Source: a virus (Duplodnaviria > Caudoviricetes). Taken from it: a DNA stretch of 24,922 nt. Location of the stretch: IMG/VR virus record IMGVR_UViG_3300029199_000025, positions 1 through 24,922 of that record, one strand, 5' to 3'. How positions within the stretch are numbered: position 1 is the stretch's first letter; every line of letters begins with the position of its first letter. The notes under the pieces were generated by a model, which worked only from the letters and a program-made list of their open reading frames with translations, searched no databases and was not told where the DNA came from. The position numbers and the translations under genes are program-made. This document shows positions 3,525-24,922 of this stretch, piece by piece.

Positions 3525-3541
3525 ATGGTGAGAAAAAGTCC

Positions 3542-3570
3542 TTGCATTCCCGTGCGGCTAGTAGGATCAT
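3542..3570 (+). promoter_or_regulatory. putative sigma70 late promoter (pR'-like)
   Basis: TTGCAT-17 bp-GATCAT just after the Q-like gene; predicted +1 near A3577, the first base of a leader hairpin. The -10 is non-consensus. Confidence 0.45.
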
Positions 3571-3576
3571 TTCTCC

Positions 3577-3612
3577 ATGCTGTGATTCCTTCGCCTGATG
3601 GGATTGCAGCAT
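3577..3612 (+). promoter_or_regulatory. 5' leader hairpin of the late/tRNA transcript
   Basis: ATGCTGTGATTCC pairs with GGGATTGCAGCAT (13 bp including three G-U pairs), followed by CGTTT. Confidence 0.5.
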
Positions 3613-3616
3613 CGTT

Positions 3617-3691
3617 TGGCAAGTAGCACAGCGGTAGTGCTCCCGGCTGTTAACCGGGCGGTCGTTGGTTCGAATCCAGCCTTGCCAGCCA
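3617..3691 (+). tRNA. tRNA-Asn(GTT)
   Basis: Cloverleaf: acceptor TGGCAAG/CTTGCCA, D stem GCAC/GTGC, anticodon arm CCCGG-CTGTTAA-CCGGG, T loop TTCGAAT, G73, encoded CCA. Confidence 0.95.
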
Positions 3692-3696
3692 ATCAA

Positions 3697-3772
3697 GCCG
3701 CTATAGCTCAGTAGGTAGAGCGCCTGCCTTGTAAGCAGGATGCCAAGGGTTCGATTCCTTTTGGCGGCACCA
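3697..3772 (+). tRNA. tRNA-Thr(TGT)
   Basis: Acceptor GCCGCTA/TGGCGGC, D stem GCTC/GAGC, anticodon arm CCTGC-CTTGTAA-GCAGG, T loop TTCGATT, encoded CCA. Confidence 0.95.
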
Positions 3773-3775
3773 AGC

Positions 3776-3850
3776 GTCCAGGTGGTGTAACGGCAACATG
3801 CCGGCCTCCAAAGCCGTGTGATCTGGGTTCGAATCCTAGCCTCGACGCCA
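3776..3850 (+). tRNA. tRNA-Trp(CCA), atypical (C4:C69 and C27:U43 mismatches)
   Basis: Acceptor GTCCAGG/CCTCGAC, D stem GTGT/ACAT, anticodon arm CGGC-CTCCAAA-GCCG, T arm CTGGG-TTCGAAT-CCTAG, G73, encoded CCA. Confidence 0.85.
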
Positions 3851-3857
3851 ATTCAAG

Positions 3858-3883
3858 AAACCGACCACTGAGTCGGTTTTTTT
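3858..3883 (+). terminator. intrinsic terminator after the tRNA cluster
   Basis: AAACCGAC-CACTGA-GTCGGTTT with the T run continuing to 7 T. Confidence 0.85.
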
Positions 3884-3884
3884 A

Positions 3885-4044
3885 TGCCGATTAGAAAGCC
3901 AATCCGCGCTTCAGTCGGCAATGAAATACCAGTTTAGGGCGCTAAAGGCCGTTTGAATGGCTCGCCACCATGCGCCCAACCCTCTTCCGGCCCCATGCCT
4001 GCCTCCTTGCTCATAGGCGGATCGCACGCGCATGTGAGGCCGGA
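3885..4044 (+). other. three consecutive predicted stem-loops in the leader of the lysis genes
   Basis: TGCCGATT/AGTCGGCA (3885-3920); GGGCGC/GCGCCC with inner stem (3937-3977); TCCGGCC/GGCCGGA, CATGC/GCATG and CTGCCT/AGGCGG (3986-4044). Confidence 0.5.
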
Positions 4045-4067
4045 CCAATCACCAACGAGACTCCACT

Positions 4068-4382
4068 ATGACCGACAGCCATGAGGGCAGGACAGTGCAT
4101 GAGCGAGTCGGCGCCCTGGAGCAAGAGGCGGCCGTCACTCGGCATCGCCTGGACAGATTCGACCGCGACCACGCGCAGTCACCCAACCGCCTGACCAAGC
4201 TCGAGCAGCAGTTCGAGCACATGACCCGCCAGCTCACCGCGATCGGAGAGAGTCAGGACGAGGTAGCCGGGAAGGTGGACACGCTGAGCAACAAGCTCAC
4301 CTATGGCATTGGCGCCGGCGTGGTGCTAGTTGCCGTGTTCGACAAGCTGTGGCCGTTCCTGGCCAAGGGGTTTGGCTCATGA
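4068..4382 (+). CDS. coiled-coil protein with C-terminal membrane anchor (XhlA/holin-associated type, 104 aa)
   Basis: Heptad-rich N-terminus (RLTKLEQQFEHMTRQL), one TM YGIGAGVVLVAVF...LWPFL; first gene of the late operon. Confidence 0.7.
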   Translation: MTDSHEGRTVHERVGALEQEAAVTRHRLDRFDRDHAQSPNRLTKLEQQFEHMTRQLTAIGESQDEVAGKVDTLSNKLTYGIGAGVVLVAVFDKLWPFLAKGFGS

Positions 4383-14787: not shown

Positions 14788-15215
14788 GTAACCTGTTCAA
14801 CGCTTACGCGAGCTATGAGCAAGGCAAGTACCTGGACGAAGTGGCCAAGGTAAATGCCGGAATCTCGAACCAGGCCGCGAGGGATGCCATCAAGCGCGGC
14901 AGCATTGAAGCCGATGAGCAGCGTAAAACCACGCAGCAGGTCATCGGTGCACAGCGCACAGGTTTCGCGGCAGGCAACATCGACGTGAACACTGGCTCGG
15001 CCGGACAGGTGCAGAACGACGCCGCAGCGCTGGGCGAGCTGGACGCGCTTACGATCATCAACAACGCCGCGCGCGAGGCCTACGGCTACCGGGTGCAGGC
15101 GATGGATCAGCGGCAGCAAGGCAAGCTGGCGAAGTGGCAAGGCAAGATGGAAGCGTTCGGTTCTATCCTGGGCGGCGCCGAGAAGGGCGCCATGTTTGCA
15201 GCTGGAGGCGCCTGA
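14778..15215 (+). CDS. small internal virion/ejection protein, T7 gp14-like position (145 aa)
   Basis: GAGG RBS, Met-Cys start, IGAQRTGFAAGNIDVNTGS motif, Ala/Gly/Gln-rich. Confidence 0.82.
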   Translation: MCVSNLFNAYASYEQGKYLDEVAKVNAGISNQAARDAIKRGSIEADEQRKTTQQVIGAQRTGFAAGNIDVNTGSAGQVQNDAAALGELDALTIINNAAREAYGYRVQAMDQRQQGKLAKWQGKMEAFGSILGGAEKGAMFAAGGA

Positions 15216-17323
15216 TGGCACGAGTCCCAGATTACTCGCAGCGCCAGGTCAGCTTGCGCCCGGTGAACTCCAACGGGTTCAGCATGCGGGCGCCGGATGC
15301 GTCAGGCTTCACCCGCGGCCTTGAGCAGGCAGAGAATGCCATGCTGCGCCGGGTCGAAAAGGAGCGCGAGAACGCCAATCGAGCAGCCCTGCTCGAGGCC
15401 GACAAGCAGCTGACCGACTGGCAGCACAACACGCTGTTCAACCCGGAAAGCGGTGTGTACACCCGCAAGGGCAAGAACGCGCTCGACGTGACCAACAACA
15501 CGCTTGCTCAGTTCGAGGAGGCGCAGGCGAAGATCGCTGACGGTCTCAAATCAGAAGAGCAGCGTGCCCTGTTCACCCAGGTTGCTGCGCAGCGCCGTGA
15601 GTCCATCTCGCGCGAGCTGAACCGCTACGAATACGGCGAGCGTCAGCGCTACTACGATGACGTCGACCGCGGTCAGCTCGAGACGGCCATGCAGGGTGCT
15701 GCACTGAACTACAACAACCCGGAGAAGATTGCCTACTACCAGCGCTCGGCCAATGAGGTATTGAAGGCGCAGGCTGAGCGCAAAGGCCTCCCGGAGGAGA
15801 TGCTGCAGGCCAACTTGCTCCAGGCCAACAGCGGCATGGCGACGGCCGTTATCTCTCGCATGGTCAACGAGGATCCGGGGCGCGCGAAGCAGTACTTTGA
15901 GACTGCGCAAGGGCAGATGACTGCCGACGACCAGGTGCGTGTATCGAATCTGATCGACCGCGAGATCAAGCGCCGCGAAATCGAGGCCAGGCAGATTCAG
16001 GCGATCGCCCGGGCGGAGCTGTCGAGTCGCGTGTCTGACGCGCAGTCGGCCTATCTGTCCGGCTATGAATTCGACAATCCGCCGTCGCAGTCAGAGTTCG
16101 TGGCGTCCTTTGGAGCAAAAGAGGGCGCCGAGCGCTACCAGCAGTTTGCCAAGACACAGGCGCTTGGTTCTGCTATTCGTCAGGTCAAGACCGCTTCGCC
16201 CGAGGAGCGCATGCGTCTAGTCGAGCAGTTCCGTCCAGCCAAGGATGGCGTGGCCGAAGACGGTTTCGCGGTCGATGCCAAGCTGTACGGAACGCTGATC
16301 AATGCAGCATCGCAAGCAGCGGACGAGCTTCAGCGCGACCCGGCATTCTACGCAGCCAGCTACAGCCCATATTTGCGTAAGGCCGCTGAAGATGCGTCAA
16401 GTGGCGACCCAGCAGCTACCGAGGCGTATGCAACTGCCATGCTTGCCGAACAACAGCGTCTTGGTGCGCCAGATCCGAAACTGCTCACTTCCCGCCAGGC
16501 TGCCGGCATCGCCGCTGCATTCGAGAATACTGAAGACGGCGGAAGCAACGCAGCTCAGCTCATCGAACAGCTGCAACAGCAGTGGGGCAAGCACTGGCCG
16601 ACCGTCTACAAGCAGTTGCAGGACAAGCTGCCGGGCGCCGCGCTGGTCATTGGCTCTGGCGTGGACGAGCAGACAGCGGCAACGCTGGCCCGTATTGCGC
16701 ACTTGAAGACCGAGGAACTGAAGAAGGGCCTAGACAGCACCGAGACGCGCGACGCCAAGCTTGCGCTGAATGAAGGCATGGCTGAGTTCCGCAACACCCT
16801 GGCCGGGCAGGTCGGTGGCGAGCGCACATTCTCCACGCTCTACAGCGAAGCCGAACGCCTGACCTACGCTTACATGGGGCAGGGCAAGAGCGCGCGGGAC
16901 GCGGTCAGTCTGGTGAAGAAATCGCTGATCGATGACAAGTACACGCTGGCCGGCACCTATCGCGTACCGAAGTCGTTCGATGCTGACCTCGTTGAGGTTG
17001 GCACAGAGCGCGCGCTGGAGAGCATCGATCCTTCATCCTTGCATTTCGTCAAGGAGCCATGGATGAAGCAAGAGGATGCGTTCAATCAAGCGCGAGCCAA
17101 CCTCGAAGAAGCCTACTGGGTCAACACGGCAGACGAAAATGTAGGCTTGATGCTTTACCGAAACGGCAGGGCGGTGCTCGATAAAAATAAGAAGCCGATT
17201 GTACGTAGCTGGGATGATCTTGCAGAGCAGGCGGTGCGGAAGGCCATCCAAGCTCCGAATGCCGATATCCCCATGCCTAGCGGCAGCATGCTCGACTACA
17301 GCAAAACGAGATCAGTGAGATGA
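15215..17323 (+). CDS. internal virion/ejection protein, gp15-like position (702 aa)
   Basis: GGAGG RBS, TGATG coupling, MARVPDY start, long alpha-helical Cys-free sequence. Confidence 0.82.
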   Translation: MARVPDYSQRQVSLRPVNSNGFSMRAPDASGFTRGLEQAENAMLRRVEKERENANRAALLEADKQLTDWQHNTLFNPESGVYTRKGKNALDVTNNTLAQFEEAQAKIADGLKSEEQRALFTQVAAQRRESISRELNRYEYGERQRYYDDVDRGQLETAMQGAALNYNNPEKIAYYQRSANEVLKAQAERKGLPEEMLQANLLQANSGMATAVISRMVNEDPGRAKQYFETAQGQMTADDQVRVSNLIDREIKRREIEARQIQAIARAELSSRVSDAQSAYLSGYEFDNPPSQSEFVASFGAKEGAERYQQFAKTQALGSAIRQVKTASPEERMRLVEQFRPAKDGVAEDGFAVDAKLYGTLINAASQAADELQRDPAFYAASYSPYLRKAAEDASSGDPAATEAYATAMLAEQQRLGAPDPKLLTSRQAAGIAAAFENTEDGGSNAAQLIEQLQQQWGKHWPTVYKQLQDKLPGAALVIGSGVDEQTAATLARIAHLKTEELKKGLDSTETRDAKLALNEGMAEFRNTLAGQVGGERTFSTLYSEAERLTYAYMGQGKSARDAVSLVKKSLIDDKYTLAGTYRVPKSFDADLVEVGTERALESIDPSSLHFVKEPWMKQEDAFNQARANLEEAYWVNTADENVGLMLYRNGRAVLDKNKKPIVRSWDDLAEQAVRKAIQAPNADIPMPSGSMLDYSKTRSVR

Positions 17324-19056
17324 CGCTCTATCTTGATGGCAATATCGTCGACCCGGATTACGATCTTCTTAGGGACTCGGTCACCGGGCAGTTTGATGCG
17401 GCAGAGGCTGCGTGGGATCAGCAGGCCTTTGATAACCCGGTGATGGCAGCCCGCAGGATTTCCGAGCTTGCTGACGCCGAGCAGGGTGAGGTTATCCGTC
17501 CTGCCATGACGGCGCGCGGGTATACCTCCCCAGCCGTTAGGGCTGAGCCTGAATCGCCCATGCTCCCTGCCGAGGTTGCTCGTGCACGCGTCAAGGAAGA
17601 AGGCCTCGACCTATCCATCGATGACGGCGGTATTCGCGAAGGCGTTCTTGATATCCTGGTCGAGCGTAAGCGCGCAGAGGCGCAGCGCAAGTTCCTGCTC
17701 GACAACGCGCCGGCGTCGACCATCCCGGTTCAGCTGCTTGCGGGCTTTGCCGCTTCGGCTATTGACCCGATCAACATCGCATCGGCATTTATCCCCGTAG
17801 TCGGCGAGGCGCGCTATGCGTCGATGCTGGCCAATGCCACTACCAGAGCGGCCAGGTTTGGCGTTCGCGCTCGCGTTGGGGCGCTAGAGGGCGCCGTAGG
17901 TGCGGCGATGGTTGAGCCGCTGGTGCTGTACGCATCCGCGCAGGATCAGGCCGACTACGACATCACCAATAGCCTGCTCAACGTAGCATTCGGATCAGTT
18001 CTCGGTGGCGGGCTGCACGCGGCCGGCGGCCTGGTCAGCGATCTTCGGCGTGGCAACCTGCTCGAGCAAGTCAGGGTCGAGTCACTGGCAGAAGCTCCGC
18101 AAGGCGCTGAGGCCAGGGCGACGACGCCAGAGATCGCACTACGGCGCGGCGACGACGACCCCATGCTGCGCCTGAGCGATTCGCTGGCCCGCGGCATTGA
18201 GGCTGATCGTGCGCGCATCGCCGAGGCGTCGGCTATCCAAGCTCGTGACGACCTGATCCCGCAGATTCGCGCAGAGCTGCAGGCCGTCGCAGAGGGCCGC
18301 CTGCCAAACGTGGCCGACCTGAAGGGCGAGCGCTCTGCTATCAATCGCAGCCTGTCGACGCTGGATGAGTCTTTTCGAGATCGCGCCAAGGCTTTCCAGC
18401 AGCAAGGCCTAACGCGCAAACAGGCAGAGCGTGCCGCGCGTGACGCAATCACGGAGGAGCGGCAGCGACTTACAGAGCGCAGCCTTGAGGTTGACGACGC
18501 CCTGGCAGGCAATCGGAGTGCCGAGCAGGCGCGGGCAGAGCTTTCACGCCTAGAGCGCGGAGAAATTCCTGAGCGTTATCAGGCACGCATAGACGAAGCT
18601 GCCGGCAAGGCGGCGTCTGGTTTCGAGCTGCGCCAGACTGCGCGGGCAATGGCCGAATCTGCGCCGTGGCAGGTTCGCGAAAGCGCGCTGCGTGCGGCGG
18701 TAGCCCAAGCCGTAACTGGAAGACCAGTCGACGTCGAGCCGATCTTCCATCTTGCCGATCCGGCCAAGCGACAAGCCGCACTTGAGCGCATCAAGGAGCC
18801 GATCAGGACCGTTTCAGATCCTGAAGGCGAGGTAGCCGCCTACATGGCGGACGAAACTGCCAACTCGCTTGACGGGACAGACCTTGAAGGCGCTGAGCGT
18901 ATGCTTGCCGATGAGCAGGCGCTGACCGACGAGATGGCTGCACAAGCCGGAATCGACCTGAAGCCATTTCTGCGCGAAGCCGAAGAACTGGCCGCAGATG
19001 CCGAAACCTACGCCGCCGCTTACCGGGCCGCGGCACTTTGTCAGTTGAGGAACTAA
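17320..19056 (+). CDS. internal virion/ejection protein with hydrophobic Gly/Ala segments (578 aa)
   Basis: ATGA coupling; DPINIASAFIPVVG and NVAFGSVLGGGLHAAGG segments, then a long coiled-coil region. Confidence 0.82.
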   Translation: MTLYLDGNIVDPDYDLLRDSVTGQFDAAEAAWDQQAFDNPVMAARRISELADAEQGEVIRPAMTARGYTSPAVRAEPESPMLPAEVARARVKEEGLDLSIDDGGIREGVLDILVERKRAEAQRKFLLDNAPASTIPVQLLAGFAASAIDPINIASAFIPVVGEARYASMLANATTRAARFGVRARVGALEGAVGAAMVEPLVLYASAQDQADYDITNSLLNVAFGSVLGGGLHAAGGLVSDLRRGNLLEQVRVESLAEAPQGAEARATTPEIALRRGDDDPMLRLSDSLARGIEADRARIAEASAIQARDDLIPQIRAELQAVAEGRLPNVADLKGERSAINRSLSTLDESFRDRAKAFQQQGLTRKQAERAARDAITEERQRLTERSLEVDDALAGNRSAEQARAELSRLERGEIPERYQARIDEAAGKAASGFELRQTARAMAESAPWQVRESALRAAVAQAVTGRPVDVEPIFHLADPAKRQAALERIKEPIRTVSDPEGEVAAYMADETANSLDGTDLEGAERMLADEQALTDEMAAQAGIDLKPFLREAEELAADAETYAAAYRAAALCQLRN

Positions 19057-21632
19057 TGGGCGCTCTAGACTGCATCGACACAATCCAGGCTGCTGCCAAG
19101 GCCGCAGGGCGCGAGCTGAACGAGAATGAAATGGTCGAGCTGGTAGGCGACCTACAGGCGCGCATCAAACAGCTGCAGGCGACTGACGGCATGCTTGGCC
19201 TAGAAGACGCTGCGTTGCGTGCCGCTGACGAGATGGGGAACGAGGTGAAGCTGGCCGCTGCCATCGAGAAGCGTAACGCGCTGCTCAACGCTCGCCGCCG
19301 CGCTGAACTGGTCGGCTATATCCGCAGCACATGGTCAGATCGTCCCGACCTCGGACTCGAGTCATTCCTTGTCGGCACCAACGTTGCTCGGGCAGGCGCG
19401 CGCCGGTCGGTCGCGGCCGAGCAGAAACAGCTCAGCCAGGCCTATATCGCCGGTTTCCTCAACGACATCGAGAAGGAGGGGCTGCTGCCTTTCCTGACTC
19501 GCGGCGACTTGGATCAGGACATCGCAGATTCGCTCTGGCGTATCGGCATGGATCGTCCGCTGGACGGCCTGAGCAAGGAAGCCGTGTCGATCGCCAAGAT
19601 CATGCAGAAATACCAGGAGACGGCCAGGATCGACGCGAACCGCGCGGGCGCTTTCATCCGCAAGTTGCCTGGCTACGTGGTGCGCCAGTCCCACGACCCG
19701 TACAAGATTCAGCGCGCCGGTTTCCAGCAATGGCGCGACGAGATCCTGCCGCTGTTGGACGAACGCACCTTCGAGGCTGGCTCGGACGTAGATGGCTTCC
19801 TGCTGGCCACCTACAACAATCTGGTCTCTGGTGTGCACCTGAAAGCTACCACGCCAGAACCGACAGGCTTTAAAGGTCCGCGCAACCTGGCCAAGAAGGT
19901 CAGCGCCGAGCGCGTGCTGCACTTCAAGGACGGCGTAGCGTGGAACCAGTACAACAAGGTCTACGGCACCGGCTCGCTGCGCGAAGCATTCCTTGGTGGC
20001 CTCGACCGCTCGGGTGACAGCACCGGCCTGATGCGTCGCCTGGGCACCAACCCTGAAAGCAACTGGAGCGCCGCGCTCGACGAGCTTCAGCTTGATCTGA
20101 AGAATGACCCGGAAGGCCTGCGCAAATTCCAGCAGGATCGCAACGGGCTGCTCAAGACACGCTTCTCGGAAATCGACGGCACGTCCCGCATGGCTGTCAA
20201 CCATGTTGGCGCCAGGGTGGCTTCGAACCTCCGCGCTTGGCAGTCAATGGCCAAGCTGGGCGGCGCGGTCATCTCAGCCGTGACGGACCTTCCCGTTGCA
20301 GCGAGCGAAATGCGCTACCAGGGCAAGGGCATGCTGTCTTCCATGGGCGCACTGATCGGCGGCATGGTCAAGGGCCGCAAGCCAGCTGAGCAACGGGAAA
20401 TTCTCTCGACTCTGGGGGTGTTCTTCGACAGCGTGCGCGGCGAGGTGGTAAGCAAGTTCAGCGCCGATGATTCGCTTGGCGGGCAGATGAGCAAATGGCA
20501 GCAACGGTTCTTCAAGGTAAACGGCTTGACCTGGTGGACGGACGCCATGCGCAGCACCGCGGCGCTGATGATGAGCCATCACCTGGCCTACAACCGTTCA
20601 CTGAACTGGGACCAGATGAACCCTGATCTGCGGCGCACGCTTGAGCTGTTCGACTTCGATGCTGGCAAGTGGGATCTGGTAAGGAGGACGGGAGCCAAGC
20701 AGGCCGACGGCCGCGAGTACATGACAGCCCAGGGCATCGACGATATCGCTGACGCGGATCTCGCCGGATACCTCACCAGCAAGGGTCGCACAGTCAACGA
20801 CGCGGCTGTTGCTGAGCTGCGCGAGGAGCTGCGCGGCAGCCTGCGCAGCTACATCACTGACCGGGCCAGCTATGCCGTCATCGAGCCGGACGCCAGGACG
20901 CGCGCCATGATGCGCCGCGGCACTCAACCCGGAACCGTAGCCGGCGAACTTCTGCGGTTCGTCGGTCAGTTCAAGGCATTCCCTGTGGCCATTCTGCAGA
21001 AGTCGTTCGGCCGAGAGCTGTATGGGCGGGGCTACAAGCCAGGTGCCTACGGTGCAAACCCTGGCCGCGAACTGATCCAGGCTATGCGCAGTGGCAACGG
21101 CGAAAAGCTCGGTATCGCTCAGCTGATGCTGTGGACCACGCTGTTCGGCTATGGCGCCATGGCCACAAAGGATCTGCTGAAAGGACGCGAACCTCGGCCG
21201 GCAGATGACCCCAAGACTTGGGTGGCGGCGATGCTGCAGGGTGGCGCGCTCGGGCTGTACGGTGACTTCCTGTTCGGTGAAGCCAACCGCTTCGGCGGCG
21301 GGCTCACGCAGTCGCTGTCAGGTCCGACGCTGGGCCTGATCGACGGCGGGTATGACCTGTTCGCTAGGGCGCGCGATGGTGACGATACGGCAGCGGCGGC
21401 TGTGCGTTACACAATCCAGAATACGCCTTTCGCAAATCTGTTTTACACTCGCGCAGCGCTTGACTACTTGTTCCTTCATAGCCTGCAAGAGGCGCTGAAT
21501 CCTGGATCACTTCGTAGGATGGAAAGACGAATTGAAAAAGAAAACGCACAGCGCTTCTTAATCTCGCCTTCTCGGAACTACCTCGACACTACCGGTGCGG
21601 TGGTCGATACAGTTTCCGACGTGTTCAGATAA
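19056..21632 (+). CDS. large internal virion/ejection protein (858 aa)
   Basis: GAGGA RBS, TAATG coupling; QSHD, ERVLHFKD, KLGGAVIS, GELLRFVGQFKAFP, QGGALGLYGDFLF motifs; C-terminal hydrophobic helices. Confidence 0.88.
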   Translation: MGALDCIDTIQAAAKAAGRELNENEMVELVGDLQARIKQLQATDGMLGLEDAALRAADEMGNEVKLAAAIEKRNALLNARRRAELVGYIRSTWSDRPDLGLESFLVGTNVARAGARRSVAAEQKQLSQAYIAGFLNDIEKEGLLPFLTRGDLDQDIADSLWRIGMDRPLDGLSKEAVSIAKIMQKYQETARIDANRAGAFIRKLPGYVVRQSHDPYKIQRAGFQQWRDEILPLLDERTFEAGSDVDGFLLATYNNLVSGVHLKATTPEPTGFKGPRNLAKKVSAERVLHFKDGVAWNQYNKVYGTGSLREAFLGGLDRSGDSTGLMRRLGTNPESNWSAALDELQLDLKNDPEGLRKFQQDRNGLLKTRFSEIDGTSRMAVNHVGARVASNLRAWQSMAKLGGAVISAVTDLPVAASEMRYQGKGMLSSMGALIGGMVKGRKPAEQREILSTLGVFFDSVRGEVVSKFSADDSLGGQMSKWQQRFFKVNGLTWWTDAMRSTAALMMSHHLAYNRSLNWDQMNPDLRRTLELFDFDAGKWDLVRRTGAKQADGREYMTAQGIDDIADADLAGYLTSKGRTVNDAAVAELREELRGSLRSYITDRASYAVIEPDARTRAMMRRGTQPGTVAGELLRFVGQFKAFPVAILQKSFGRELYGRGYKPGAYGANPGRELIQAMRSGNGEKLGIAQLMLWTTLFGYGAMATKDLLKGREPRPADDPKTWVAAMLQGGALGLYGDFLFGEANRFGGGLTQSLSGPTLGLIDGGYDLFARARDGDDTAAAAVRYTIQNTPFANLFYTRAALDYLFLHSLQEALNPGSLRRMERRIEKENAQRFLISPSRNYLDTTGAVVDTVSDVFR

Positions 21633-21640
21633 GGATGTCT

Positions 21641-21928
21641 ATGTCCGTGGTTATATCACTGCTGTGGATTGTCGTGGCACCAGTCCTGCTCGCAACGATT
21701 GGAGCTGCTGCGGCGCCTCCGCCATGGTCTGCCTATATCGCGATGGCTATTTTCTTTCCGGCGACTTTCGTGGGTATCTCGATAGCTACGGATATTGATG
21801 GCGGCAGGATTGGATCAATACCCGCAGCAATCCTTGCCGTTAAGGAAGGAATGCAGTGGTTTCTCTGGTGGCTCTTGATTATGGCAGGCTGCATCGGTGC
21901 TGCATGGGCGGCTGCGGTGCTTAGCTAA
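21641..21928 (+). CDS. accessory inner-membrane protein, three predicted TM helices (95 aa)
   Basis: AAGGA RBS fits ATG 21641 (alternative start 21635); almost wholly hydrophobic; T-ending codons unlike the structural genes. Confidence 0.75.
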   Translation: MSVVISLLWIVVAPVLLATIGAAAAPPPWSAYIAMAIFFPATFVGISIATDIDGGRIGSIPAAILAVKEGMQWFLWWLLIMAGCIGAAWAAAVLS

Positions 21929-21937
21929 GGAGGGGGT

Positions 21938-22444
21938 GTGACGATCTATACAGGAGGCCCGATCATTGGCGGGCCCATTGACCTGGGCGATATCGTTCCG
22001 GAAACAGAAGTTTGGTCAGCATGGGCGACGGCAGATCTTATTGCCGTTGTGTTGACGGCATCTCTTGTCGTTAGGCTTTTGCTGGCGTGCCGAAAAGGCG
22101 CCCACCCGCTGATTGGGCTTTCCGAACCACTCGGCCGAGCGCAGCGCATTGGTGTGGTTCTGCTGGTTGCTGCTGCGGCTGTTTTATTAGCCTTTGCTCT
22201 GGCGATCTTTTTTCAGGACTACACGCATGCTCAGGCTGAGCATCGCAGAGTCTTCATGGATGCGACATTTTATACGGGCCGCACGGCCGAGTACCGCTCC
22301 GCAGCCATGGCGCTCTATAGCGCGGCGATTCACCAAGAAATTTGGCTTCTAGCGACGGCGGCGGCCGCTGTCATAGGGGGCTGGCTTGTCTTCGCCCATC
22401 GAGCAACTACAGAGCCACTGATTAGTTGGCTTAAAGACGGCTGA
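21938..22444 (+). CDS. accessory inner-membrane protein, three predicted TM helices (168 aa)
   Basis: TAAGGAGG RBS before GTG; acidic N-terminal segment, TM1, basic loop, TM2, about 40-aa loop, TM3. Confidence 0.8.
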   Translation: MTIYTGGPIIGGPIDLGDIVPETEVWSAWATADLIAVVLTASLVVRLLLACRKGAHPLIGLSEPLGRAQRIGVVLLVAAAAVLLAFALAIFFQDYTHAQAEHRRVFMDATFYTGRTAEYRSAAMALYSAAIHQEIWLLATAAAAVIGGWLVFAHRATTEPLISWLKDG

Positions 22445-22460
22445 ATTCGCTAACCACAAG

Positions 22461-22481
22461 ACCCGCTTCGGCGGGTTTTTT
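22461..22481 (+). terminator. intrinsic terminator 1
   Basis: ACCCGC-TTCG-GCGGGT followed by a T run (6 T in total). Confidence 0.9.
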
Positions 22482-22495
22482 ATTGCCCAAATTCC

Positions 22496-22522
22496 AGGCC
22501 CCGCCAATGAGCGGGGCTTTTT
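22496..22522 (+). terminator. intrinsic terminator 2
   Basis: AGGCCCCGC-CAATGA-GCGGGGCTT with a 5-T run. Confidence 0.85.
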
Positions 22523-22546: not shown

Positions 22547-24922
22547 ATGACCGTTCAAACCAGCACCAACGTTGCAGCCTTCGTCGGAAACGGTGTTGCC
22601 ACCAGTTTTCCGATCGGGTTCAAGTTCAATTCGTCAGCCGATTTGATCGTAGAAGCGACCAACACAGTAACGGGTGTCACTACGCCCCTTTCGCTGAACT
22701 CGGATTACACCGTCACCGGTGCGGGCAATGAGAACGGAGGCACGATTACCTTCACGGCAGCTCCGCTTTCCGTTGAGAAAGTAAAGGTCACCCGTCACGT
22801 CGATTTGCTGCAATTGACCGACTTGCGCAACCAAGGCAAGTTTTATGCAGAGGTACACGAAGACGTGTTTGATAAGCTGATCATGATCGATCAGCAACAA
22901 CAGACCGAGATCAATGCCGCCAACGACAAATCCGACGAAGCATTGTCAGCCGCTAACGCTGCGAACGAAAAGTCTGACCAGGCCGTCGCAAAAGCCGACC
23001 AGAACCTCGTTGATATGCAAGCGCAGTACGATGCTTTCGAGCAAGGCGCCTCGCTCGTGGTCATTGGCGATTATGCCGCCGGCCTTGTCGTTGATGGCTA
23101 CAACAAGGTTTTTCGCAAAGACGGCGAGCTCTACCGGGCCAAGGCCGAGCTGGCGCTACCGTACTCGCTGAATGGCGACTGGGCAGTAGATGCGCCAAAA
23201 TTCGTTTCGGTCGGCGATGCGGTGCTGCGCCAGGATCTGGCCACTGCGGATGGCGCCGACATGGTCGGCTACAAGGGCCGCACGGTGGCGGACAAGCTCG
23301 GCGATGTGGCCAACATCATGGACTACGGCGCGGTGGCCGATGGCGTGACCGACGATGCTCCGGCCCTGCGCGCGGCCATGGCGGCGCTGGTCGCCAAAGG
23401 TGGCGGTTATCTGTACCTGCCAGCCGGCACCTACTACCTGAACTCTGGCGATCCACGCGGCCTGGCGATGCTGCCCATCACCGGCAAAAATGAGTTCTAT
23501 ACCGTGTGCGAAATCGGCGACGGCGTAACCGTGTACGGTGACGGCGACGCGACGGTGATCAAGTACGAGTCCAATCGCGTAGGCGAGTACCTTAGCCCCA
23601 GTCCGGTTGATGGGATTTATCGCGGGGATGTTGGAGCGCTATTTGCAAACTTCAGGGTTCGTGCGAACAACAACACGCCCTATGCGGTTGGCTCGTTCCA
23701 TGTTCGAGACTTTAGGGTGCTGTATACGCCTCTGCTCAACCAGACCAAGGACTATATCGACGGCCAGGTGGTGCGGATCTATTCCAACTCTGGGGAGGTG
23801 GCGAACGGAAACTTTACCGTCAAGAATGTAAATGTCACTAGCAACCCCGGCCATCAATGTTTCTCGTATGAGAAGGTGGATTCGTTCGATGCGAGCGACA
23901 ACCGCATCTATTCGCCGGGGTACTCGTCCAACCCGTCGAACTCGGACCACTCGGTTTTTTTCATTACGGGGACGAAAGCTCGATATGCCGGGAACCAGTG
24001 TTTCGGGGCGGTGCCGGACAAGAACAGCACGTTCTTTGAGTCGCACTGCCTCTATAACGACATCACCGGCAACCTGTGTTTCGGCATGAACGTGTTCGCC
24101 AATGCCGTGAGTCAGGTTGTGCACCCCGGCGCGGCCTACGACTTTTCGCAGTTCCGCATCGCGCACAACTACGCGCGCCAGTGCAAGACCTTCGTGATGG
24201 ACTTCTGCTACACGGCGAACCGCAAGTCGTTTCTGGAGATCCTCAACAACAACATTCTGCTGCTCGCGGCGACGGTCAATGACGCCGAAGCCATCGTGAG
24301 ATTCGCCAATGACACCGGGTCGCCCCCTGCCGACATCCTTCCTACCGATCTGATAATTATTCGTGGGAATACGGTTGATATCGTTGAATCGACAGGCTTG
24401 GAAGTCGCCTACGCGACCTCATTTGATGCCTTGATTAATCATTCTCAGGTTTCGCACCTTGTCGTGGAAAACAACGAGGTGCGAAAGGCACGCCGTGCTG
24501 TCGTGAATATCGAAGGGACCAAGATCGTCAGCGCACGTATTGCGAATAATCGGTTACTGAACGCGTGTCATCGGGGGAACGGTACGGCAGACGAGGGCGG
24601 GCGGGCCTCGCGCGCGGCCATCATGTGCACGCTCAGTCCGGGGTCGATTCTCGACCGCCTTGAAGTCGAGAGGAACACGATCAGCAACGCCTATAGCGGC
24701 GCGTCTGTGGCCTACGCGCTGCTGGTGGCGAATTTCTTTGGGGCGTCGGCAGCAACGAAATTCGTAGTCAAGTGGAATACCGTCCTGGGCGGAACGACCC
24801 GTAATGTGTTTGTGGATGCGCAGGGAGCGAATACCCACGCCGCAGACACGTTCGAGATCGATCACACACATACCGTGTTTGACGCGGCATCGAGCTACGT
24901 CGAGCTGGTCTCATGTGGCGCG
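22547..24922 (+). CDS. tailspike / depolymerase-type receptor-binding protein, 3' truncated by the window (at least 792 aa)
   Basis: AAAGGA RBS; manual translation: T7 gp17-like anchor (GNGVATSFPIGF...DYTVTGAG...DLRNQGKFYAEVHEDVFDKL), coiled coil, tailspike N-module (FVSVGDAVLRQDL), pectate-lyase-like start (NIMDYGAVADGVTDDAPAL...LYLPAGTYYL) and beta-helix rungs; absent from the ORF track because it has no stop in the window. Confidence 0.92.
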   Translation, partial: MTVQTSTNVAAFVGNGVATSFPIGFKFNSSADLIVEATNTVTGVTTPLSLNSDYTVTGAGNENGGTITFTAAPLSVEKVKVTRHVDLLQLTDLRNQGKFYAEVHEDVFDKLIMIDQQQQTEINAANDKSDEALSAANAANEKSDQAVAKADQNLVDMQAQYDAFEQGASLVVIGDYAAGLVVDGYNKVFRKDGELYRAKAELALPYSLNGDWAVDAPKFVSVGDAVLRQDLATADGADMVGYKGRTVADKLGDVANIMDYGAVADGVTDDAPALRAAMAALVAKGGGYLYLPAGTYYLNSGDPRGLAMLPITGKNEFYTVCEIGDGVTVYGDGDATVIKYESNRVGEYLSPSPVDGIYRGDVGALFANFRVRANNNTPYAVGSFHVRDFRVLYTPLLNQTKDYIDGQVVRIYSNSGEVANGNFTVKNVNVTSNPGHQCFSYEKVDSFDASDNRIYSPGYSSNPSNSDHSVFFITGTKARYAGNQCFGAVPDKNSTFFESHCLYNDITGNLCFGMNVFANAVSQVVHPGAAYDFSQFRIAHNYARQCKTFVMDFCYTANRKSFLEILNNNILLLAATVNDAEAIVRFANDTGSPPADILPTDLIIIRGNTVDIVESTGLEVAYATSFDALINHSQVSHLVVENNEVRKARRAVVNIEGTKIVSARIANNRLLNACHRGNGTADEGGRASRAAIMCTLSPGSILDRLEVERNTISNAYSGASVAYALLVANFFGASAATKFVVKWNTVLGGTTRNVFVDAQGANTHAADTFEIDHTHTVFDAASSYVELVSCGA

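What the first reader, a model, noticed from the sequence alone, without database searches (positions are those of the whole stretch)
21938..22444. Membrane protein whose N-terminus resembles the phage's own ejection protein: candidate decoy-type superinfection exclusion
Seen: the 168-aa protein begins MTIYTGGPIIGGPIDL and the 578-aa ejection protein (17320) begins MTLYLDGNIVDPDYDL. That is 7 identities in 16 ungapped positions (including Met) plus I/L and I/V exchanges, and the DNA is similar too (gtgacgatctat...ggc...atc vs atgacgctctat...ggc...atc). The segment is acidic and precedes TM1, and the loop after TM1 is basic (RK...RAQR), so the positive-inside rule puts the N-terminus in the periplasm. 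Established: podoviral ejection proteins (T7 gp14-16) assemble a trans-envelope channel. Inference: the lysogen displays a membrane-tethered copy of a docking peptide that traps the ejectosome of incoming relatives. The match is short and could be chance or a recombination scar.
Basis: partly seen in the sequence, partly recalled or inferred. Interest (0 to 1): 0.8.

Follow-up and report, generated by a model that had tools for sequence, protein, structure and literature searches.

The report
Phage membrane protein copies ejection-protein tip
A small accessory gene of a temperate phage encodes a predicted three-pass membrane protein whose first 20 residues closely copy the conserved tip of a likely DNA-injection protein of its phage group, so it likely works as a decoy that blocks incoming related phages, although no binding or blocking has been tested.

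Summary
The window pair matches at 7 of 16 residues. Across relatives, the 168-aa family begins MTIYT[EDG]G[LP][IV][IV]GGPI[DN]L. The 578-aa family begins MT[LI][FY]T[DE]GL[IV][IV]R[RK]DRN[IL]L. The best cross-family pair matches at 14 of 20. A 10-codon pattern matched 36 places in 2.9 million viral contigs: 32 ejection-gene starts, 2 starts of this family, 2 unrelated internal hits. The head is under purifying selection, is not a recent DNA copy, and has lost the original's basic residues, which fits export to the periplasm. One correction: it copies the clade's common tip, not this phage's own. The window's ejection tip is a rare variant, changed together with the C-terminal domain of the 702-aa protein, the likely partner. 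The gene sits in a variable membrane-protein cassette at the P22 sieA position, with a candidate internal -10 element and terminators, but it is not a SieA homolog. Decoy-type superinfection exclusion is the best reading (about 0.5). Topology, expression, binding and exclusion are untested.

The parts
21938..22444 (+). m168: 168-aa accessory protein with three hydrophobic segments (residues 33-51, 73-91, 135-153); narrow family from Stutzerimonas-associated phages
   Evidence: pN 0.17 vs pS 0.59 over codons 22-168, window vs L003
21938..22000 (+). Head of m168 (residues 1-21): copy of the ejection-protein head, with basic residues 11-14 replaced by GGPI
21927..21933 (+). Ribosome-binding site AAGGAGG overlapping the stop of m97
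   Evidence: sequence
21635..21928 (+). m97: 95-97-aa three-segment membrane protein, first gene of the cassette here; family present in 26 of 41 distinct slots; function not determined
21444..21449 (+). Candidate internal -10 element (TACACT) inside the 3' end of the 864-aa gene; no -35 found
   Evidence: only run of three nearly invariant codons among 328; present in 27 of 27 cassette-bearing and 0 of 6 cassette-lacking loci printed; not called by the consensus scan
22461..22519 (+). Two tandem terminator-like hairpins (22461-22476, 22496-22519), each followed by a T run, closing the cassette
   Evidence: the scan lists the first on the - strand, the second on +
17320..19056 (+). g578: likely ejection (internal virion) protein, N-terminal part of a T7 gp16-like pair; hydrophobic segments 143-161, 186-204, 222-240
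   Evidence: phrog_3003; distant homologs annotated as internal virion protein; hydropathy; role inferred from synteny
17320..17382 (+). Head of g578: rare acidic variant in this phage (3 of 120 homologs)
15215..17323 (+). g702: likely T7 gp15-like tunnel protein; predicted small C-terminal alpha/beta domain at about residues 577-675 (about 16943-17239), the inferred partner of the head
   Evidence: synteny
17035..17394 (+). Diverged low-GC patch covering the g702 C-terminal domain and the g578 head, with a family-like stretch (g702's last ~12 codons) between them
   Evidence: 23 of 46 invariant sites changed in g702 605-680 vs 6 of 154 elsewhere; GC 0.53 vs 0.61-0.63; DNA bins
19038..21632 (+). 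g864: last internal virion protein gene (phrog_684), upstream border of the slot
22547..24922 (+). Tailspike gene (runs off the window), downstream border of the slot

Best explanation
m168 is an accessory, predicted three-pass membrane protein whose first 20 residues copy the conserved tip of its phage group's 578-aa likely ejection protein, and it likely displays this copy in the periplasm as a decoy that would block DNA entry by related phages. Shown: the copy, its conservation, the loss of basic residues, the variable cassette, the integrase in carriers. Inferred steps: (1) the cassette is transcribed in the lysogen from a promoter inside the 864-aa gene; (2) TM1 inserts N-out, which the arginine-free head allows; (3) in a normal infection the ejected g578 head docks on the C-terminal domain of g702 to join the periplasmic tunnel to the inner-membrane part, as T7 gp16-N does with gp15; (4) pre-placed m168 heads occupy that site on an incoming relative's g702, so the conduit is not completed. 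The decoy is clade-wide rather than self-specific. This phage's swapped g702-domain/g578-head pair would be a candidate escape variant.
For: Profile of 23 distinct g578 heads: among 13,021 ORF starts the three m168 heads present ranked directly after the 15 close-family ejection heads and above true Ab31-type heads; 0-1 of 100,000 shuffles reached each of 8 scores. Collection scan 32 + 2 + 2 of 36. The profile-profile match is confined to residues 1-23, E 2e-4; the body has no match. Head pN 0.09 vs pS 0.42, p 0.007; most conserved segment in 46 distinct sequences, 0.90 vs 0.83. K/R in first 25 residues: 0 in 47 of 48 members, against a mean of 2.9 in the first 21 of 120 ejection heads. Joint change of the g702 domain and g578 head in this phage, basic-for-acidic on one side and acidic-for-basic on the other. 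Slot equals the P22 sieA position; SieA is a 162-164-aa, three-segment inner-membrane blocker of the ejection conduit (PMC10883804). T7 gp16-N cements the gp15 C-terminal domain (PMC8954989; bioRxiv 2021.01.04.424714). Integrase in 4 of 4 relatives tested, two of them m168 carriers.
Against: The whole-protein positive-inside bias is modest: inside 6-8 vs outside 4-7 K/R, reversed in 1 of 9. The copy drops residues 11-14, which are conserved in the original (R11 113/120, R14 115/120) and may matter for binding. The window's m168 carries G6 and P8, away from the consensus. The head is not significantly more constrained than the body (p 0.27 and 0.23). No tracking of the resident's type. The joint change of g702 and g578 is one lineage, and the two parts are adjacent in DNA. 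The g702/g578 roles rest on synteny and on annotations of distant homologs. The cassette is on the late-gene strand and the candidate promoter lacks a -35.
Confidence: 0.5

Rival explanations
1. Bait-and-signal sensor: the head binds incoming g702, but the effect comes from the membrane body (alone or with m97), which depolarises the cell or shifts lysis timing on superinfection.
For: The body is also under purifying selection; the 93-134 loop is well conserved (22 of 42 columns invariant); m168 follows an m97-family gene in 5 of 5 slots. Superinfection-triggered lysis inhibition exists in T4 and N4 (bioRxiv 2025.11.12.688109 passages).
Against: m97-family genes occur without m168 in 21 of 26 slots; no Pfam, NCBIfam or PADLOC family matched; the cytoplasmic parts are very short.
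Confidence: 0.17
2. The head acts in the cytoplasm: it binds newly made g702 or the portal core during assembly, either spoiling the virions of rival phages or tethering or loading the protein into the phage's own core.
For: The gene lies on the late strand directly behind the ejection genes; the same head probably also contacts partners inside the capsid (inference from the T7 core stack); the charge bias is modest.
Against: TM1 has no basic residue before it and 3-5 after it in a short loop; the basic residues of the original were removed, which a cytoplasmic copy would not need; three hydrophobic segments make packaging unlikely.
Confidence: 0.12
3. Old captured gene start: the 5' end of an ejection gene was once fused to a membrane gene and is kept for translation start or N-tail export, while the protein does something unrelated.
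For: Head constraint is not significantly above the body; I3 and Y4 resemble minority or distant ejection heads; the window's copy has drifted (G6, P8).
Against: Synonymous sites have diverged while the matching residues stay fixed; substitutions at 6, 9 and 10 stay mostly inside the set that the ejection family uses; residues 22-30 of the same tail are the least conserved segment (0.72), so mere tail position does not impose conservation.
Confidence: 0.13
4. Helper, not blocker: the displayed head pre-nucleates or guides the tunnel of kin phages, or binds a host envelope factor that the real head also uses.
For: The motif copies the clade consensus; SieA's authors raise occlusion of a host factor such as YajC as an alternative (PMC10883804 section 21).
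Against: A lysogen gains little by aiding superinfection; 36 of 41 slots lack m168; the joint change with g702 points to a phage partner.
Confidence: 0.08

Closest known systems
Phage P22 SieA (PMC10883804; abstract, passages and sections 7 and 21 read)
   Same: About 165 aa, three predicted membrane segments, no signal peptide; gene lies between the last ejection gene and the tailspike; accessory; proposed target is the ejection conduit.
   Different: No sequence likeness (prob 0.1%, E 0.46). sieA is on the opposite strand with its own annotated promoter; m168 is the second gene of a same-strand cassette. The passages read report no ejection-protein mimicry for SieA.
T7 gp15:gp16-N periplasmic tunnel (PMC8954989 and bioRxiv 2021.01.04.424714; passages read)
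   Same: Gene order small / ~700 aa / large internal proteins; the N-terminal part of the last component is the inferred binder of the previous component's C-terminal domain.
   Different: The gp16-like part appears split into 578 + 864 aa and g578 shows no transglycosylase family hit; no sequence or fold match to solved T7 proteins was obtained.
Pseudomonas phage Ab31 / AF / epsilon15-like temperate podoviruses (PMC3974807; passages read)
   Same: Same structural gene order; g578 is 42% identical to Ab31 ORF15.
   Different: Ab31 has a 63-nt gap where this phage has the two-gene membrane cassette; 34 of 34 hits of the Ab31-type head pattern were ejection genes, none a membrane copy.
Membrane superinfection-exclusion morons such as HK97 gp15 and TP-J34 Ltp (passage in PMC10883804; protein name Ltp recalled) and T4 Imm (passage in PMC11436027)
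   Same: Small envelope proteins from accessory slots that act at DNA entry.
   Different: No homology found; none is described in the passages read as carrying a copy of the target's partner peptide.

Membership tests
SieA | Sequence homology to P22 SieA | tested here: not met
   hhalign of the m168 alignment vs P22 SieA: probability 0.1%, E 0.46; no PHROG or NCBIfam family. Types B and C were not compared.
SieA | About 160-aa protein with three membrane segments and no signal peptide | tested here: met
   Three hydropathy peaks in 9 of 9 sequences; three long helices in a low-confidence model. Prediction only.
SieA | Gene between the last ejection gene and the tailspike gene | tested here: met
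   strand differs
SieA | Expressed from the prophage | tested here: inconclusive
   Candidate -10; only unstranded contigs available
SieA | Blocks DNA injection; escape maps to ejection proteins | not testable with these tools
   Needs plating and injection assays
Moron (independent accessory transcription unit) | Present in some relatives and absent or replaced in others | tested here: met
   m168 in 5 of 41 distinct slots
Moron (independent accessory transcription unit) | Own terminator | tested here: met
   Two hairpin-plus-T-run sites after the gene; consensus match only
Moron (independent accessory transcription unit) | Own promoter | tested here: inconclusive
   Consensus scan found 0; conserved TACACT in 27 of 27 vs 0 of 6, confounded by relatedness
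T7 gp15/gp16-like ejection proteins (g702, g578) | Position after tail tubular and small internal virion genes; membrane-inserting segments in the gp16-like part | tested here: met
T7 gp15/gp16-like ejection proteins (g702, g578) | Sequence or fold likeness to solved ejection proteins | tested here: inconclusive

The most novel reading that the evidence does not exclude
Temperate podoviruses run a peptide-decoy arms race at the DNA-entry step. A lysogen displays a membrane-tethered, export-adapted copy of the clade's ejection-protein docking peptide, which caps the incoming periplasmic tunnel. This phage carries the decoy and has itself escaped it by swapping both the docking peptide and its binding domain. 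That would identify the tunnel-to-membrane docking interface of epsilon15/Ab31-like phages from sequence alone.
Probability: 0.3. Interest if true: 0.88.

Novelty: new variant of a known kind. Interest (0 to 1): 0.7.

Why it matters
How SieA-type proteins stop DNA entry is unresolved at the molecular level. Here the candidate blocker names its own target: a 20-residue copy points to one interface of the injection conduit and gives a natural specificity pair (family type vs this phage's swapped type). That makes the mechanism testable with short deletions and one domain swap in harmless Stutzerimonas hosts. Three full-text searches found no report of superinfection exclusion by ejection-peptide mimicry (the library lacks most subscription papers). 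This scan's own unchecked notes list eight similar cases in other phages, so this is one more instance of a pattern that may be general, not a unique one.

Tried and rejected
Chance: rejected. Recent DNA copy or gene conversion: rejected; upstream identity is at background, and identical codons among identical residues are 36-50% against 57% between ejection genes. m168 as a truncated whole duplicate of g578: the body gives E about 1. SieA homology: none. Tracking of the resident's ejection type: not found (12 pairs inferred from equal contig length, p 0.27). Complex prediction, family-type g702 C-terminal part with m168 residues 1-32: no answer (0.09 and 0.06, mark 0.32); neither support nor evidence against; the g578-head/g702 pair was not folded. 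The m168 model was poor (pLDDT 52) and its fold search gave nothing at E <= 0.001. The g702 C-terminal model was good (pLDDT 82) but had no clear match (best Z 6.8). No remote m168 homologs; the head-only search had just 6 candidates, so it is weak. No other protein with the head motif at a gene start; only two patterns were tried. The deviant-head pattern found only the near-identical phage. RNA runs: contigs only, small shares; a 218-nt contig over m168 alone in one run of guessed RNA is not used as evidence. No solved relatives by sequence. m97 shows no likeness to the structural proteins and only sub-0.9 Atlas hits. No earlier scan notes by sequence or place. Supplements of the papers were not opened; SieA's topology figure and alignment there could bear on the comparison.

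Full report
Setting. The window is the structural half of an Ab31/epsilon15-like podovirus: terminase, portal, capsid, tail tubular proteins, internal virion genes of 155, 151, 702, 578 and 864 aa, two small membrane genes, and a tailspike. Named homologs come mostly from Stutzerimonas genomes. Four of four related phage records tested encode an integrase, among them two carriers of the 168-aa gene. I call the genes g702, g578, g864, m97 and m168. The ejection role of g702, g578 and g864 is inferred from gene order and from annotations of distant homologs; no solved relative was found.

Observation. Both starts are as quoted, with 7 identities in 16. Only 1 of 13,004 other candidate ORF starts reached the pair's score. 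The family view is much sharper. The 120 listed g578 homologs (of 677 found) begin MT[LI][FY]T[DE]GL[IV][IV]R[RK]DRN[IL]LDDV. The m168 family begins MTIYT[EDG]G[LP][IV][IV]GGPI[DN]L.D[IL]V; 47 of 48 members read keep TIYT. The best cross-family pair matches at 14 of 20. With a profile of 23 distinct ejection heads, the three m168 heads present among 13,021 ORF starts scored 6.9, 6.2 and 1.1. Only the 15 close-family ejection heads scored higher; the Ab31 head scored -8.8 and the best unrelated start -10.1. At most 1 of 100,000 shuffles reached any of 8 m168 scores. A 10-codon pattern drawn from both families matched 36 places in 2.9 million viral contigs: 32 ejection starts, 2 m168 starts and 2 internal matches in one unrelated gene. 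Both families match by design and the window's own G6 variant does not match; the point is how rare other matches are. The profile-profile match covers residues 1-23 only, and the m168 body has no match to the structural proteins.

Not a recent scar. DNA identity over 60 nt upstream is 0.26-0.30. Identical residues use identical codons 36-50% of the time, against 57% between ejection genes. Between the window and L003, codons 2-21 show pN 0.09 and pS 0.42 (p 0.007); the body shows 0.17 and 0.59. The head is the most conserved segment of 46 distinct sequences (0.90 vs 0.83), next to the least conserved one (22-30, 0.72). The head-versus-body difference was not significant in the two tests run (p 0.27, 0.23). 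An old capture of the ejection gene's start is a plausible origin; the copy has since been kept by selection.

Topology. Three hydrophobic segments appear in 9 of 9 sequences. The head has no K/R in 47 of 48 members; the short loop after TM1 has 3-5; the 42-residue second loop has 4-7 with 4-5 acidic residues; the tail has 2-3. The flanks of TM1 favour N-out, which puts the head and second loop in the periplasm. The whole-protein bias is small and is reversed in 1 of 9. The one block where the copy departs from the original is the basic 11-14 stretch, replaced by invariant GGPI. Basic residues hinder export of N-terminal tails (my knowledge; for PMC8548208 I saw only the one-line abstract), so the change fits an export-adapted copy. 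I put N-out at about 0.75.

What is copied, and the likely partner. The window's own g578 head is a rare acidic variant (3 of 120) and the weakest target of the m168-head profile. L077 pairs a window-type m168 with a common-type g578. Twelve pairs inferred from equal contig length show no tracking (p 0.27). So the copy is of the clade's common tip. In this phage the g702 region 605-680 differs at 23 of 46 otherwise invariant sites, against 6 of 154 elsewhere. It gains basic residues where the head gains acidic ones, while the last codons of g702 between the two stay family-like. That region is a small alpha/beta domain in a confident model of a relative. In T7, the N-terminal part of gp16 cements the C-terminal domain of gp15 (passages of PMC8954989 and bioRxiv 2021.01.04.424714). 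Together these suggest that the head docks on the g702 domain. It is one lineage, and linkage could explain part of it.

Genetic context. The slot between g864 and the tailspike varies. Of 41 distinct slots, 26 hold an m97-family gene, 11 a second membrane family and 5 m168; others are empty. P22 sieA lies in the same place, on the other strand. Two terminator-like hairpins close the cassette. Inside g864, TTT-TAC-ACT is the only run of three nearly invariant codons among 328; TACACT is in 27 of 27 cassette-bearing and 0 of 6 cassette-lacking loci (three more loci gave no anchor and were dropped). It resembles a -10 element about 185 nt before m97. No -35 was found and the carriers are related, so expression in lysogens stays an inference.

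Mechanism and rivals. The best reading is decoy-type superinfection exclusion (0.5): periplasmic m168 heads occupy the g702 site of an incoming relative and stop the conduit from reaching the inner membrane. Rivals: a bait linked to a membrane effector (0.17), an old captured start with no binding role (0.13), action in the cytoplasm during assembly (0.12), and a helper or host-factor role (0.08). Against the best reading: the modest charge bias, loss of conserved arginines that may be needed for binding, drift at positions 6 and 8 in this copy, and no experimental or structural test.

Comparison and novelty. m168 would work like SieA (size, predicted three segments, gene position, inferred target) but is not a member: no likeness to P22 SieA and no family in PHROGs, NCBIfam or PADLOC, with only weak Pfam hits at E 0.14 and above. 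It has no detectable remote homologs. Searches for mimicry-based exclusion returned 7 unrelated listings, 0 and 0 papers; passages of a 2024 review (PMC11436027) contain no 'decoy'. Eight unchecked notes of this scan describe like cases in other phages. They are leads, not support; two of them prompted the tracking test, which was negative here. Verdict: a real feature and a new variant of a known kind, interest 0.7. The boldest reading, decoy plus escape in one genome, has probability about 0.3.

Noticed in passing
window 21444-21449: TTT-TAC-ACT is the only run of three nearly invariant codons in the last 328 codons compared of the 864-aa gene. It is present in 27 of 27 cassette-bearing and 0 of 6 cassette-lacking loci: a candidate promoter hidden in a structural gene.
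   Followed up: partly
window 21635-21928; L009-L045 slots: A 93-105-aa three-segment membrane family fills the slot in 26 of 41 distinct loci, often with an 87-93-aa membrane family (11 slots) or lipoprotein-like genes (L030, L032). No family assignment.
   Followed up: partly
window 17035-17394: Low-GC diverged patch. The g702 C-terminal domain and the g578 head both differ from near-identical relatives (P0011 is 97% identical to g578 yet has the common head). P0021 and P0096 carry a third, intermediate head type.
   Followed up: partly
window 21596-21632; L003, L004, L014, L031: The 864-aa protein has an 11-residue longer C-terminus in the m168 carriers and in L014 and L031 than in most relatives.
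   Followed up: no
window 17275-17323 and relatives: The last ~25 residues of g702 come in several unrelated types among otherwise close relatives.
   Followed up: no
L044 7605-8336: This slot holds two soluble genes (97 and 144 aa), the second with tail-fibre-like composition, instead of membrane genes.
   Followed up: no
L007 15660-17588 (phage Ab31): Ab31 has an empty slot but an O-antigen acetylase gene after the tailspike, a different possible exclusion route.
   Followed up: no
window 3525-4067 and 4068-4382: A 540-nt stretch with no + strand ORF of 50 aa and lower GC precedes a 104-aa gene (phrog_31408); it may hold the late promoter. No holin or antiterminator was assigned.
   Followed up: no
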